64,000 nucleotides of DNA from Sphyrna mokarran (taxonomy: Eukaryota): positions 105,028,001 through 105,092,000 of the forward strand of contig JAGIQG010000004.1 of the NCBI GenBank assembly GCA_024679065.1, written 5' to 3'. The notes beneath the pieces were generated by a model that worked only from the letters and a program-made list of their open reading frames with translations, did no database searches and was not told the origin of the DNA. Numbering within the stretch: the first letter of the stretch is position 1; each line of letters starts with the position of its first letter. This document shows, in pieces, positions 10,471 through 18,416 of the stretch. The position numbers were made by a program, and so were the translations under genes.

Positions 10471-11242
10471 ATAAGTTAAGCTTTTTCCTAGGATGGACTC
10501 AAATAGCACAAAGAGTCACAGACTTAGGGTGAGGAGGATAAGGTATAATTTGGATGCTAGAGGGAGTATTTTCACACAGAGGGTGGTGGGGATATGGAAT
10601 GTGCTGCCAAGTAAAGTGGTGGAGGCAGGCACTCTGGAGTTATTTAAGAAATACTCAGATGGGCACATGAACAGAATGGGAATGGAGCGGTATAGAAAAC
10701 TGATTTAAAATAGGGATCATGAGCCTTGGAAGTCCCTGGGAAGTGTGTAAATAGATGATGATATTGATGTACTTGTTTTTATCCTACAGGTGCTTTGGTC
10801 CACCTTGTTGTCTAACCAGGCGCATACATGTGATGGGTCATGAGAGGGCTGCTCTTGGATCTTTTTCAAGAGTGTCCTAGTGCTTCACGTCGTTAGTGTA
10901 CGCTTGACCTGGACCATTTGATGGGCAACACGACAGCTCAGTGACTATCGCTATGCTGTGCAGATACATGGATTTGGGCCTGTGTCTGTGGGAGTTTGCG
11001 CATTCTCCCCGTGCTTGCGTGGGTTTTCTCCGGGTGCTCCGGTTTCCTCCCACATCCCAAAGATGTGCTCTTAGGCTAATTGGCAAAACAAATTCTCCCT
11101 AAATTGTCTCAAATTTGGTTTTTAATCCATAGATCTATAAACATGGACAGGGATCACAGGTAGAGATGGGAACATCGGGGTGGCGGCGCGGGCTCGTTGG
11201 GCAGAAGGGCCTGTTTCCCGTGCTGTTTTGTTCTTTGTTCTT
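10471..11242 (+). mobile_element. 5'-truncated CR1 LINE with composite 3' UTR (spacer + V-SINE + CR1 tail), copy 1
   Basis: ORF2 end 10493-10708 (FTQRVVGIWN), spacer, SINE head remnant from 10923, V domain about 10983-11085, CR1 tail; TSD CTAA at 10467-10470 and 11243-11246. Confidence 0.85.
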
Positions 11243-11249
11243 CTAACCC

Positions 11250-11402
11250 TGTCTATTTCCCCTTCTCCTTTAAACCTATCTCATTGGTGATGAAACCTCT
11301 TTTAATGTCTCTTTGTATGGCTAAATGTTAAGCTTTGGCTGAGAAGCACCTTGGCACACTTTTCTACATGAGGGACACTGTATCAACGCAACTTGTTATT
11401 GA
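11250..11402 (+). mobile_element. Old L2-type 3' end fragment
   Basis: CTGAGAAGCACCTTGGCACACTTTTCTACATGAGGGACACTGTATCAACGCAACTTGTTATTG resembles the L2 3' terminus. Confidence 0.5.
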
Positions 11403-13781: not shown

Positions 13782-14740
13782 GCAACTTCAGCTGAGATTT
13801 TACAACCTCAATCTTAGGTATTGCATTTACTGTCACACACGTTGTTACTTAATTTGCTCAAGAATGACTTTCTACAAAATTGTAAAATTGATTGTTTTTA
13901 AAAGGTTGTGTTTGCTCTTTGGGGATTGATTGAATTGCTTTGATGTTAAGAACATGGCTTAGTTTTGGGTCAACGCCAAGAACATTTGATTTAATAATGC
14001 TTAGGAGAATAGTAAAATAAAATCTACTTGTCATTAGACTTTGCACTTTTTAGTCTTAAGCACAGAGTTGCTCATGATAAGTTTTCTTCTCTCCAGCCAC
14101 AGCTATAAAGGTTAATGGTAACACTAAGCGACCAATGCTCCCTCCTTAAGTGAATGCTGATTATTATCAGGAATCAGTAACTTATTGGCACTGAACATCC
14201 TTCAGCATGCTCTGCAAAGCATATTTTAACTTTATTTTTAACACAGGTTGCAAGAACCCAAACATCTGATCCATTGTACAAAGATAGTATCAGTTATGAA
14301 TCTCAAGGCATAGCAAAACTATAACATAGAAAATTTTGCAGCCCATAGTAAGAAAGCTGAGACTTGGGTGTTCTGAAAAATGTGTTTTCATTGCAGTATA
14401 TTAATGGTGTGCTTCATAGTTGACATATAAAAAGCTCCCTGAACAAAAACAGAGTAAGTGACCTTGCACCACGAGCTGACCATTGTTTGCTTGCACCATT
14501 CATGTTTTCACTTTGTCAAAGTTGATAAAAGTCTGTCTTGCTGTTCAGCGCTTCATCGTGGGGATCACCAATTTACTGTATGTAACCTGTTACTTGCACA
14601 GCAGCAAGTTCGAGCGAAAAATACTGGTATGAGGGAGCAGGTCAAATCGTGATTTATGGCCACCACATGACTCTCAATCTAGGAGATCCTTATAGAGACC
14701 ATGAAGATTTGGAGCCTCAGAGGTCTGGAAGTTAAAGGAT

Positions 14741-16670
14741 ATAGAACATAGAACAATATAGCGCAATACAGGCCCTTTGGTCCTCGATGTTATGCCGAGA
14801 TATGTCCAAACCCAAAATCAAGCTATCCCACTCCCTATCATTCTGGTGTGCTCTATGTGCCTATCCAATAACTGCTTGAAAGTTCCTAAAGTTCCGACTC
14901 CATTATTACAGCAGGCAGTGCATTCCACACCCCAACCGTTCTCTGAGTAAAGAACCCACCTCAAACATCCCTCCTATATCTCCCACCATGAACCTTATAA
15001 CTATGGCCCCTAGTAACAGCTACATCCACCCAAGGAAATAGTCTCTGCAAGTCCACTCTATCTATCCCCCTTTATCATCTTCTAAATCTCTATTAGGTTG
15101 CCTCTCATCCTCCTCCACTCCAAAGAGAAAAGCCCCAGCTCCCTCAACCTTTCCTCATATGACCTACACTCCAAACCAGGCACCATCCTGGTAAATCTCC
15201 TCTGCACTCTCTCCAATGCTTCCACATCCTTCTTATAATGAGGTGACCAGAACTGAACACAATATTCCAAATATGGTCTCACCAATGTCCAATATAGTTG
15301 CAGAATAACCCCATGGCTCTTAAACTCAAACTCCCTGTTAATAAACGCTAACACTATAAGACTTCTTCACAGCCCTTTCCGCTTGAGTGGCAACCTTCAG
15401 AAATCTGTGGATATGAACCCCAAGATCTCTCTGTTCCTCTACATTCCTTATAACCCTCCTCTTGACTCTGTAATCTGCATTCAACTTTGTCCTACCAAAA
15501 TGAACCACCTCACACTAACCAGGATTAAACTCCATCTGCCACCTTTCGGCCCAGCTCTGCATCCTATCAATGTCTCTTTACAGCCTGCAAGAGTCCTCCA
15601 TCTCATCCACTACTCCACAATCTTGGTGTCGTCAGCAAATTTACTATCCCAGCCTTCAGCCCCTTCTTCCAAGTCATTGATAAAAATCACAATAAGCAGA
15701 GGACCCAGTACTGATCTCTATGGTACACCGCTGACATCCAGTCTGAAAATTTTCCCTCCACTACCACCCTCTGTCTTCTATGAGTTACTTATCTGGTTGG
15801 CTAAATTTTCTTCTATCCCACACTTCTTTATCTTCTTCATGAGCCTACCATGGGGAACCTTATCAAATGCCTTACTAAAATCCATGTATATGACATCAAC
15901 TGCTCTACCTTCGTCCACACACTTAGTTACCACCTCAAAGAATTCAATCAAATTTGTGAGGTAGGGACTTACCACTCACAAAACTGTTCTGGTATCCCAG
16001 ATTAAACTGAATCTTTCCAAATGGTCATAAAATGTATCGCTCAGGACCCTTTCCATTAATTTATCAACTACAGAAGTAAGGCTAACTGGCCTATAATTAC
16101 CAGAAATGTTGTTCCTCACTTCAAGAAAGGAAATAGCAACAAACCTTGTTTTTCCTTCTTACATACTTCTTTTTTCTTCTTGAGAAGACATTCGACCTCC
16201 TTTGTGGACCATGGTTCCCTCGGCCATTTCTTCCTGCCTGCCAGGGACAAATCTGTCAAGGACACGCAGTGTTTGTTCCTTAGAAAAGCTCCACTTTTCA
16301 TTTGTGCCCATACCTGACAGCTTCTGTTCCCACCTTATGCTCCCTTAATTGTATCATAATTATCCCTGCCTCAATTATAAACCTTGCCCTGCTTATGACC
16401 CTATTTTTCTCCTTTGCAATAATGAAGGACGCCGAATTGTGGTCACTATTTCCAAAGTGCTCTCCCACAAACAAATCTAACACTTGGTCTGGTTCATTAA
16501 GCAGTACCAAGTCCAATGTGGCCCCACCTCTTGTCAGTTTATCCACATGTTGTGTCAGGAAACCCTCCTGCACACACTGTATAAAAAGTGTCCCATCTGA
16601 ACTATTCGAGTTATAAACGTTCTAATCATATTTGGAAAGTTAAAGTCACCCTTGATAACTATTCAGTGAC
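14741..16670 (-). mobile_element. CR1 LINE ORF2, 3' part of an element split by an insertion
   Basis: (CATAGAA)n tail at 14741; RT motifs YMDFSKAFDKVPH and [12 protein letters not shown] motifs GDFNFP and TRGGATLDLVL; internal deletions. Confidence 0.9.
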
Positions 16671-18416
16671 AAGCAAAGAACAAAGAACAACACAGTAAGA
16701 GAAACAGACCCCTTAGCCCAACAAGCCCACGTCACCATTTTAACATTATGAGTGCCCTCCTCTACCTATGACCTTTGTCTACACCTATTGGGCAAGATTG
16801 GGGGAAGACTAATTTAGGGACAATTTGTTACACCAATCAGTCCAAGAGCACGTTTTTGGGATGTGGGAGGAAACCAGAGCACCCAGAGAAAACCCACGCA
16901 ATCATGGGGAGAATGTGCAAACTCCCGCAGACACTGGCCCAATCCATGTATCTGCACAGCAAACAGTGATAGTCATTGAGCTGTCATGTTGCCCATCAAT
17001 GGTCCAGTTTAACCACACACTAACGACATGAAGCACTAGGCGATTCTTGAAGCAACATCCTTGCACAACCCACTGCGTGTCTGCTCCTTGTTGGTCAACA
17101 AGGTGGACCAAATCACCTGTGAAGTAAAAGAAAAAACATGAAAAAACATGCACAACTTAGACAGACATTTACAGAATCCCTAGAAGCTCAGGAGTAAAAC
17201 AAGTGTGTCATGAAATATATTGGAAGGTCCATAGGAATCAATTGATTCCTAGGGATGTCCCAAGACTTTTGATCTTTATTGAGAAAAGCTTCCTGTATCC
17301 CTCCATCTCTCATCCACTCATGTGCCTAAGTGAGCCTTGAACAACTCTAACATGCCTGCCTCCACCAGTGCATGGCAGTGCACTGGCAGTGCATTCCAGG
17401 CCCCAACCACCCTGTGTGTGAAAAACTTCCCTCTAACATCCGAATTATACCTCCCCCCCACCCCCCACCCCCTCACCCTAAGCCCGTGGCCCCTCATAAT
17501 TTTTGTATCCAACCTAAGAAAAAGCTTACCTCTGTTCACTCTATCTATACGCTTCATAATCTTATACACCTCTGTTAGATCTCCCCTCATTCTCCGTCTT
17601 TCTAAGGAGAACAGCCCCAATTTGCCCAATCTCTCCTCATAGCTGAGTCCTTCCATACCAGGCAGTATCCTGGTAAACTTCCTCTGAACTTTCTTCAGGG
17701 TCTTCACATCCTTCCGGTAGTAAGGCAACCAGAACTGGACGCAGTACCCCAAATGCAGGCGAACCAACGTTCTATACAACTGCAACATTAGAAGCCAGCT
17801 TTTATACTCTATAACCCTCCTTATAAAGACAAGTATACCAGAGGACTGCTTCATCACCTTCTCTACCTCTACTACCACCTTCAAGGACTTGTGTACTTGC
17901 ACACCCAGGTCCCTCTGCATTTCTATACTTTTAATAGGCCTACCATTTATCGTGTAACTCCTCCCTACATTCATTCTTCCAAAATGCATCACCTCGCATT
18001 TATCTGGATTAAATTCCATCTGCCATTTCTCTGCCCAATATACCAGCCTATCTATATCCTTCTGTATTGCCTGACACTGCTCTTCACTATTAGCAAGTCC
18101 AGCCATCTTCGTATCATCTGCAAACTTGCTGATCAACATCACTTACTCCCTATTCCAAGTCATTTATGTATATTACAAATAGCAAAGGCCCCAGTACTGA
18201 GCCCGACGGCACACGACTAGTTACAGACCTCCAGCTAGAAAAGGACCCTTCCGCTGTTACTGTCTGTCTCCTGTTACCAAGCCAGTTTTCAATCCATCTA
18301 GACACCTGTCTTTGTATCCCATGAGCCTTAATCTTTTCCACCAACCTACTATGAGGGATTTTGTTAAACGCCTTACTAAAATCCATGCAGACAACATCCA
18401 AGGCTCGTCCTTCATC
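16671..18416 (-). mobile_element. 5'-truncated CR1 LINE with composite 3' UTR (spacer + V-SINE + CR1 tail), copy 2, nested in another CR1
   Basis: ORF2 17318-18416 (DFSKAFNK, GSVLGP, KFADD); 3' UTR homologous to 10709-11242; TSD GAC at 16668-16670 and 18417-18419. Confidence 0.9.

What the first reader, a model, noticed from the sequence alone, without database searches (positions are those of the whole stretch)
10471..18416. CR1 lineage whose 3' UTR is a captured V-SINE lacking its B box (two independent copies)
Seen: copies at 10471-11242 (+) and 16671-18416 (-) share the order ORF2 end, unique spacer, SINE tRNA-head remnant, V domain, CR1 tail. Ordinary CR1 copies here have a short tail straight after the stop. 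Each composite is bounded by its own short TSD (CTAA; GAC), so it moved as one unit. Both lack the same ~19 nt covering the pol III B box that free SINEs (e.g. 30391) retain. Known: the shark HE1 V-SINE carries the HER1/CR1 3' tail. Inference: a master LINE read through into a downstream SINE and adopted its tail as its own RT recognition site, the reverse of the usual SINE-borrows-from-LINE direction. It stayed active long enough for the copies to diverge visibly.
Basis: partly seen in the sequence, partly recalled or inferred. Interest (0 to 1): 0.72.

Follow-up and report, generated by a model that had tools for sequence, protein, structure and literature searches.

The report
CR1 retrotransposon with embedded SINE core
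A self-copying jumping gene with over 26,000 copies in this (likely shark) genome carries, inside its untranslated end, the front part of a small parasitic element that has lost its promoter box yet changed far less than near-neutral sites, which likely means that this long-unexplained conserved piece does a job for the RNA that carries it.

Summary
The composite is real, and it is a large family. Both window copies belong to one CR1 LINE clade with at least four subfamilies. There are 26,470 exact matches to a head 22-mer, and near-full-length 4.65-kb copies carry ORF1 and ORF2. The 3' UTR runs: linker, a conserved ~135-nt block predicted to fold, a tRNA head lacking ~18 nt over the B box, the V domain, linker, tail. 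26 of 30 consecutive copies have ORF2 upstream.

Tail adoption is not supported. The last ~55 nt are closer to the short-tailed sister LINE family (tree support 100/99) than to either CR1-tailed free SINE (8 differences versus 13 and 17, hand count). The SINE part is therefore most likely an internal insert, and the LINE kept its own tail. The 3-4 nt TSDs are at chance level.

Between the three main branches, V differs by 5-8% and four-fold sites by 26-32%, which points to selection on the RNA. Function is untested. The scan noted this before, in this genome and another. Nine paper searches found no description; Repbase and Dfam could not be checked.

The parts
10475..10708 (+). Copy 1 (subfamily A): 3' end of CR1 ORF2, 5'-truncated, stop codon at 10706-10708
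   Evidence: Open 77-codon frame; collinear with near-full-length copies that carry EN and RT
10709..10789 (+). Copy 1: linker 1, variable in length between subfamilies (about 80 nt in A, 165 in B, 20 in C/D), ending in a pyrimidine tract and a splice-acceptor-like site
10790..10922 (+). Copy 1: block 1, ~135 nt of unknown origin, predicted to fold as a three-way junction with a long hairpin
   Evidence: Consensus fold -47.9 versus -26.7 +/- 3.4 for column shuffles, 0 of 150; covariation not above shuffles; no Rfam match of weight
10923..10983 (+). Copy 1: tRNA-head remnant of a V-SINE; A box altered, B box deleted
10984..11101 (+). Copy 1: V-SINE central domain and the following SINE-homologous stretch
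   Evidence: Aligns with both free V-SINE families of this genome; 3-8% divergence between subfamilies
11102..11181 (+). Copy 1: linker 2, subfamily-specific, about 50% mismatch plus gaps between subfamilies
11182..11242 (+). Copy 1: terminal CR1 tail, a predicted two-part stem-loop plus a 7-nt repeat, closest to the sister LINE family E
   Evidence: 0 of 45 differences between subfamily majorities
17280..18419 (-). Copy 2 (subfamily B): 1.1 kb of decayed CR1 ORF2, 5'-truncated
17117..17279 (-). Copy 2: linker 1 (long form), ending in the acceptor-like site
16995..17116 (-). Copy 2: block 1, with small deletions
16933..16994 (-). Copy 2: tRNA-head remnant lacking the B box
16815..16932 (-). 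Copy 2: V domain and following SINE-homologous stretch
   Evidence: (88% to copy 1 over 132 nt)
16737..16814 (-). Copy 2: linker 2 (B form)
16674..16736 (-). Copy 2: terminal CR1 tail
45600..45975 (+). Copy of family E, the short-tailed sister CR1 family without the insert (comparison element, not part of the composite)

Best explanation
This is a high-copy CR1 LINE lineage whose 3' UTR holds the head remnant and V domain of a V-SINE next to a ~135-nt block predicted to fold, likely gained once as an insert between the stop codon and the LINE's own tail and likely kept since by selection on the LINE RNA. SHOWN: the anatomy, copy number, 5'-truncated and near-full-length copies, one clade sister to a short-tailed family with a like tail, loss of the B box, and low divergence of head, V and tail beside fast-changing linkers. 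INFERRED: about 400 nt entered an E-like master roughly 14 nt after its stop codon, by a SINE-bearing insertion or a template switch during reverse transcription. ORF2 still recognises and primes on the ancestral stem-loop and repeat. The Pol III boxes were likely lost because an internal Pol III transcript would act as a competing SINE. Block 1, head and V likely work together as a cis-acting RNA element that raises the yield of copies (RNA stability, RNP assembly or delivery to the RT). That some such role exists is about 70% likely; which role cannot be told from sequence.
For: 26,470 exact matches, reversed control 0. ORF2 upstream in 26 of 30 consecutive matches; the other 4 break at scattered points in or at the start of the UTR. 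9 of 9 long copies, picked by an ORF1-region query, end in the composite UTR, and 8 reach a shared 5' end; they carry EN, RT and an esterase-type ORF1. The composite clade has support 100/100 and is sister to E at 100/99 (66 of 140 candidate rows). Tail differences are 8 to E, 13 and 17 to the SINEs, and 7 of 9 diagnostic sites side with E (hand count). In the five comparisons other than C-D, V differs at 5-8 of 100 sites and the head at 3-7 of about 61, against 26-32% at four-fold sites (Fisher p 2e-3 to 2e-5 for V, uncorrected), while linker 2, lying between V and the tail, differs at 48-67% plus gaps. All four subfamilies share differences from the free SINEs, so present-day SINEs did not homogenise them. 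Block 1 and the head fold better than all 150 column shuffles, and two ORF2 controls do not.
Against: No function was tested. Block 1 is not clearly slower than four-fold sites in four of six comparisons (p 0.12-0.86), and the head is not slower in C-D. Double-sided pair changes in block 1 (3) are reached by 22 of 150 shuffles, and the V domain alone shows no folding signal. Four-fold site counts are small (50-64) and the six comparisons are not independent. Two tail positions match the SINE, and a minor free SINE subfamily shares the tail core (209 matches versus 2,794). None of the 9 long copies has an unbroken ORF2 (longest frame 827 aa), so present activity is not shown. The bootstrap had not fully settled, and subfamily D was only in the shorter tree. 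The source of block 1 was not found.
Confidence: 0.68

Rival explanations
1. Read-through and tail adoption: a master LINE lost its own tail, transcribed through a downstream V-SINE and used the SINE's tail. In a mixed form, the join lies inside the shared tail core, with the 5' arm from the SINE and the 3' end from the LINE.
For: The donor resembles the CR1-tailed free SINE more than the other family (alignment scores 207 versus 148-170, tails included). Two internal-loop positions of the tail match the SINE. A minor free SINE subfamily shares the tail core. Block 1 could be genomic sequence picked up by read-through.
Against: The outer stem, the 3' arm and the terminal repeat match sister family E (7 of 9 diagnostic sites). 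Linker 2 no longer aligns to the SINE's 3' body. 0 of 111 free V-SINEs score best to the composite tail. 9 of the 10 minor-subfamily loci fetched end in the SINE-type tail; the tenth is a SINE head fused to a composite end.
Confidence: 0.17
2. Neutral passenger: the insert does nothing, and looks conserved because UTR pieces were exchanged between subfamilies or converted by abundant SINE copies.
For: V-SINEs are abundant (111 free copies in 500 kb), and LINE subfamilies are known to swap modules (recalled). Block 1 divergence is near neutral in some pairs.
Against: Conserved and unalignable segments alternate within 500 nt, so exchange would have to spare linker 2 while replacing both of its neighbours. 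Composite V domains differ by 3-8% from each other and share their differences from the free SINEs.
Confidence: 0.12
3. Reverse direction: the V domain was native to this LINE's UTR and was handed to the SINE.
For: SINE bodies can come from LINE UTRs (PMC5786205, shown there for RTE and Vingi 5' UTRs).
Against: The composite keeps a decayed tRNA head directly before V. The composite clade is nested among short-tailed CR1 families. V-SINEs occur from cnidarians to fishes (PMC4824008). The free SINEs here are more diverged from their own majority (13-16%) than any composite subfamily (1-7%).
Confidence: 0.03

Closest known systems
HE1 V-SINE / HER1 CR1-like LINE pair of sharks and rays (table row in PMC3747384; Ogiwara 1999 not fetched, Ogiwara 2002 not held)
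   Same: The same kinds of parts: tRNA head, V domain, CR1-type tail shared between SINE and LINE. The name HE1 for the free CR1-tailed SINE here is recalled, not tested against a reference sequence.
   Different: There the SINE is a separate Pol III element that borrows a LINE tail. Here head and V lie inside an ORF1/ORF2-coding LINE, the B box is gone, and the tail is closest to the LINE's own sister family.
MER6/MER6A, a Tc1/Mariner MITE carrying a headless Ac1-like V-SINE (PMC6887750, parts 1-2 of 5 read)
   Same: A V domain without a working Pol III head spread as cargo of another mobile element.
   Different: MER6 is a non-autonomous DNA transposon, hundreds of copies per genome and long dead; the parts read give no test of selection on V within it. 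Here the carrier is an RNA-based coding LINE with over 26,000 copies, and V diverged several times more slowly than four-fold sites across subfamilies.
LINEs with SINE- or tRNA-like pieces noted in Repbase comparisons: Ingi-3_AC (Ceph/RTE-like piece in the 5' UTR) and RTE-1_DAn (tRNA-like piece) (PMC5786205, parts 2-3 of 5 read)
   Same: LINE families that hold SINE-related sequence outside the shared tail, in one case put down to possible LINE-SINE recombination.
   Different: Other clades and positions, mentioned in passing, with no V domain, no promoter loss and no test of constraint in the parts read.
Stringent-type LINE tail recognition (ZfL2-1/ZfL2-2; PMC4176376, abstract only)
   Same: A 3' stem-loop whose loop gives specificity. 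The composite and family E share the same predicted loop, and the major free SINE differs from it by one base.
   Different: Shown for L2-clade zebrafish elements; it is carried over to this CR1 by inference.

Membership tests
CR1-clade LINE | ORF2 with AP endonuclease and reverse transcriptase | tested here: met
   Pfam Exo_endo_phos 1e-16 and RVT_1 8e-34 on an 827-aa frame of L225
CR1-clade LINE | ORF1 with an esterase (SGNH/GDSL) domain (defining status recalled) | tested here: met
   Lipase_GDSL_2 2e-8
CR1-clade LINE | 3' stem-loop and short terminal repeat; frequent 5' truncation | tested here: met
CR1-clade LINE | RT tree places it with named CR1 references | not testable with these tools
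   Trees hold only this genome's copies; no named references were on hand
CR1-clade LINE | An intact, currently active copy | tested here: inconclusive
   0 of 9 long copies have an unbroken ORF2; young subfamilies lie about 1-3% from their majority (sets partly chosen by likeness)
V-SINE (HE1 type) | tRNA-derived head | tested here: met
   Remnant only; 1-11 of 2000 shuffles reach its score against the free head
V-SINE (HE1 type) | Working internal Pol III promoter (A and B boxes) | tested here: not met
   18-nt gap over the B box and an altered A box in all four subfamilies
V-SINE (HE1 type) | Central V domain | tested here: inconclusive
   Clearly homologous to the central domain of both free SINE families here; that this is the published V domain rests on recall, as no reference sequence was held
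V-SINE (HE1 type) | Moves as a short non-coding unit starting at the head | tested here: not met
   26 of 30 consecutive copies have ORF2 upstream; the other 4 share no 5' end and none starts at the head
V-SINE (HE1 type) | HE1-type 3' tail | tested here: not met
   Tail is closer to LINE family E than to either CR1-tailed SINE
Catalogued Repbase/Dfam consensus | Match to an existing CR1 entry with this UTR | not testable with these tools
   Neither library is held

The most novel reading that the evidence does not exclude
A protein-coding LINE has domesticated the conserved core of its own class of parasite. The V domain, together with a refolded tRNA head and a new structured block, acts as a portable RNA enhancer of retrotransposition that needs no Pol III transcription. 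This would explain why SINE central domains stayed conserved across animals, and why this clade kept producing subfamilies after the free V-SINEs and the short-tailed sister family had aged.
Probability: 0.35. Interest if true: 0.78.

Novelty: new variant of a known kind. Interest (0 to 1): 0.55.

Why it matters
Why SINE central domains (V, CORE, Deu) are conserved has been open for two decades; PMC4824008 and PMC6887750 both call their function unknown. In a free SINE the domain cannot be separated from Pol III transcription or from action in trans. Here it sits in cis in a coding LINE, without a B box, beside built-in near-neutral controls (linkers, four-fold sites), and a sister family without the insert exists. 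That allows a clean deletion test in a standard retrotransposition assay. It also matters for annotation: tens of thousands of V-domain hits in this genome are LINE UTRs, not SINE insertions.

Tried and rejected
Segmental duplication: rejected, the flanks are unrelated. Chance nesting of a SINE behind a LINE: rejected by copy number and collinearity. TSDs as proof: rejected for single copies. A known RNA family in block 1: no match, two matches at E 4-5. Block 1 without the SINE part: in 1.2 Mb of fetched DNA, much of it chosen for composites, 179 of 199 profile hits had head or V downstream; of the other 20, one is a 3'-broken A copy and 19 score under 8 bits. Splicing at the acceptor-like site: only 78 genome-wide matches have an altered upstream. 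In the 30 examined, upstream was unrelated flank, ordinary A or B linker, another nested copy or one 43-nt non-canonical deletion, with no shared donor. That pattern would have missed one short candidate intron. Contigs of four public runs laid on ORF2 end to head showed no joint at that site. Those contigs cover the stretch, deeply in X1, but X1 is only guessed to be RNA and the other three, at low depth, may be carried-over DNA. The first tree (323 columns) put the single E copy inside the clade on a long branch; the longer tree with 12 E copies put E as sister. PMC155270 was not held. The look-up of earlier findings by sequence gave nothing.
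Full report
OBSERVATION. Both copies are there. They align from the ORF2 end (67% over 292 nt) and again from 10786 to the end (75% over 471 nt), and homology stops at the element ends. Their 3-kb flanks share no like-sided hit. The ORF2 stop of copy 1 is at 10706-10708. The head remnant aligns to the free SINE head (1-11 of 2000 shuffles reach the score), with a single 18-nt gap over the B box in all four subfamily majorities. 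The TSDs are not evidence. Over 46 A copies the mean best end match is 3.7 nt against 3.1 for mismatched pairs, and 29% of mismatched pairs reach 4 nt.

IT IS A LARGE FAMILY. Searches of the genome (2.77 Gb) with the UTR of copy 1, the UTR of copy 2 and a third form found in the blind sample each filled all 40 scored places, at 97%, 84-86% and 97-98% apart from the query itself (3,728, 4,485 and 3,915 first-look candidates). A 22-mer of the decayed head matches exactly 26,470 times, reversed control 0; this is a lower bound. Ten 50-kb blocks taken at round coordinates held 115 V-domain hits, of which 4 were composites; three of the four have ORF2 upstream and one is cut inside linker 1. Of the first 30 pattern matches on contig C1, 26 have at least 50 nt of ORF2 upstream, and four break at different points in or at the start of the UTR. 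A query from the ORF1 region gave 16 loci, of which I extended 9. All 9 end in the composite UTR, 8 reach a common 5' end, uninterrupted ones span about 4.65 kb, and none has an unbroken ORF2. Pfam finds endonuclease, RT and a GDSL esterase in ORF1. Four subfamilies were resolved by their linkers. Median divergence from their own majority is 3% (A), 7% (B), 1% (C) and 1% (D, only 4 copies); these sets were partly picked by likeness to a query. Copy 1 is A and copy 2 is B.

WHOSE TAIL? The free V-SINEs of the blind sample end in a CR1-type tail (59 of 111), in a different tail (36; I call it L2-type from recall) or in neither (16). None scores best to the composite tail. Genome-wide, 2,794 matches join the free-SINE V motif to the major CR1-type tail core and 209 to the core that the composite uses. 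Of 10 such loci fetched, 9 are free SINEs of a minor subfamily that still end in the SINE-type 3' arm and repeat, and one is a SINE head fused to a composite end. The window also holds, at 45600-45975, a short-tailed CR1 family, E (25 loci, about 9% from majority). In a 914-column tree of 66 of 140 candidate ORF2 ends, all 20 rows labelled composite fall in one clade (100/100). That clade also holds three unlabelled rows: two begin with the A linker, and one is a long-branched row with another family's tail that I read as a mosaic. The 12 E rows are its sister (100/99), and the next branch has a like tail (98/91); the bootstrap had not fully settled. E stops at the same codon position as the composites, its first 14 or so UTR bases resemble those of A and B, and it has the same terminal repeat. 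Over the last ~55 aligned columns the composite differs from E at 8 places, from the minor SINE at 13 and from the major SINE at 17. Where E and the minor SINE differ, the composite sides with E at 7 sites and with the SINE at 2 (hand counts). All fold into the same predicted two-part stem-loop. The simplest history is one insertion of about 400 nt into a short E-like UTR. A crossover inside the tail core remains possible.

CONSTRAINT. For A-B, A-C, A-D, B-C and B-D, four-fold sites in the ORF2 end differ at 26-32% (50-58 sites) and first and second codon positions at 7-18%. V differs at 5-8%, the head at 5-12%, the tail at 0 of 45 sites, block 1 at 11-28%, and linker 2 at 48-67% plus gaps. 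For the closer pair C-D the values are 12.5% (four-fold), 3% (V), 10% (head) and 17% (block 1). V is thus held about as tightly as, or tighter than, the protein's replacement sites. Conversion by today's SINEs is unlikely, because all four subfamilies share their differences from the free families. A swap of whole UTRs is unlikely, because linker 2 lies between two conserved parts. The p values are uncorrected and the pairs are not independent. Block 1 and the head remnant have consensus folds more stable than all 150 column shuffles, while V alone and two ORF2 controls do not. Single-sequence z scores for block 1 are -2.5 to -3.9. Covariation is not above the shuffles (22 of 150), so the fold is predicted, not shown.

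HOW IT LIKELY WORKS. A Pol II transcript from the 5' UTR encodes ORF1 and ORF2. ORF2 likely binds the terminal stem-loop and primes on the repeat, as shown for stringent LINEs (PMC4176376, abstract). The insert is copied first in every event, so even short 5'-truncated copies spread it. Its Pol III boxes are lost, likely because an internal Pol III product carrying the LINE's own tail would be a competing SINE (inference). Block 1, head and V are likely kept for an RNA-level benefit to the element. Which benefit is unknown; stability or RNP assembly are my leading guesses.

WHAT IS KNOWN. HE1/HER1 is listed as the shark V-SINE/LINE pair (PMC3747384, passages). V-SINEs range from cnidarians to fishes and the central domains' function is called unknown (PMC4824008, passages). 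MER6 carries a headless V-SINE (PMC6887750, parts 1-2). PMC5786205 (parts 2-3) notes SINE- or tRNA-like pieces in Ingi-3_AC and RTE-1_DAn. A 2026 survey of CR1-group elements uses the word UTR once and SINE once, and the 12 of 17 passages shown describe no such UTR (PMC13343379); its supplements were not read. Nine searches listed no paper whose title or abstract start describes a V domain in a LINE 3' UTR. The two original Ogiwara papers, Repbase and Dfam were not available, so an uncommented catalogue entry is quite possible. That the host is a shark is inferred from the repeats and from recall. Twenty earlier notes of this scan hold the same search words, in this genome and at least one other; the 8 shown report the same composite. 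I had planned the constraint and folding tests before seeing them, and they are not counted as support.

VERDICT. A real, high-copy new variant of a CR1 LINE. Interest 0.55: a specialist would find the retained, slowly changing V domain surprising, and it makes an old question testable, but function is untested.

Noticed in passing
window 10770-10789 (+) and 17117-17140 (-): A pyrimidine tract plus a splice-acceptor-like site marks the 5' edge of the conserved module in all four subfamilies, though the linker before it ranges from about 20 to 165 nt. No spliced retrocopy or contig joint was found; part of the motif may instead pair in the predicted fold. Unexplained.
   Followed up: partly
window 13500-13790 (-), 19040-19310 (+), 30391-30670 (+), 61410-61690 (+), 60800-60967 (-): Four of the five free V-SINEs in the window end in a non-CR1 tail (L2-like by recall) and one has no tail; 36 of 111 in the blind sample have it. 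Two V-SINE families with near-identical head and V but different tails coexist. PMC13343379 reports L2 absent in galeomorph sharks, so the partner LINE is worth finding.
   Followed up: partly
L251-L257, L259, L260: A minor free V-SINE subfamily with a longer 3' body and a tail core like that of this CR1 clade (209 exact pattern matches): likely a partner switch by the SINE.
   Followed up: partly
L076:860-880 (-), L122-L140: Subfamily C has lost the 7-nt terminal repeat; its majority ends in an A-rich run right after the stem-loop, unusual for a CR1 (recalled).
   Followed up: no
window 19953-20565 (-), 43158-43569 (-), 47617-48229 (+): Three copies of a young short-tailed CR1 family, 95-97% alike.
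   Followed up: no
L258:1400-1760: An intact-looking SINE head fused within the V domain to a composite subfamily-A 3' end, a chimera in the SINE-takes-LINE-tail direction.
   Followed up: no
window 12226-12412 and 9425-9680: Degenerate tandem arrays with periods near 28 and 33 nt; the second has a relative near 58940-59020.
   Followed up: no
L064, L141, L220, L221, L222: Long composite copies often hold nested CR1 insertions, including a C copy and a D copy inside A copies, which could order the subfamilies in time.
   Followed up: no
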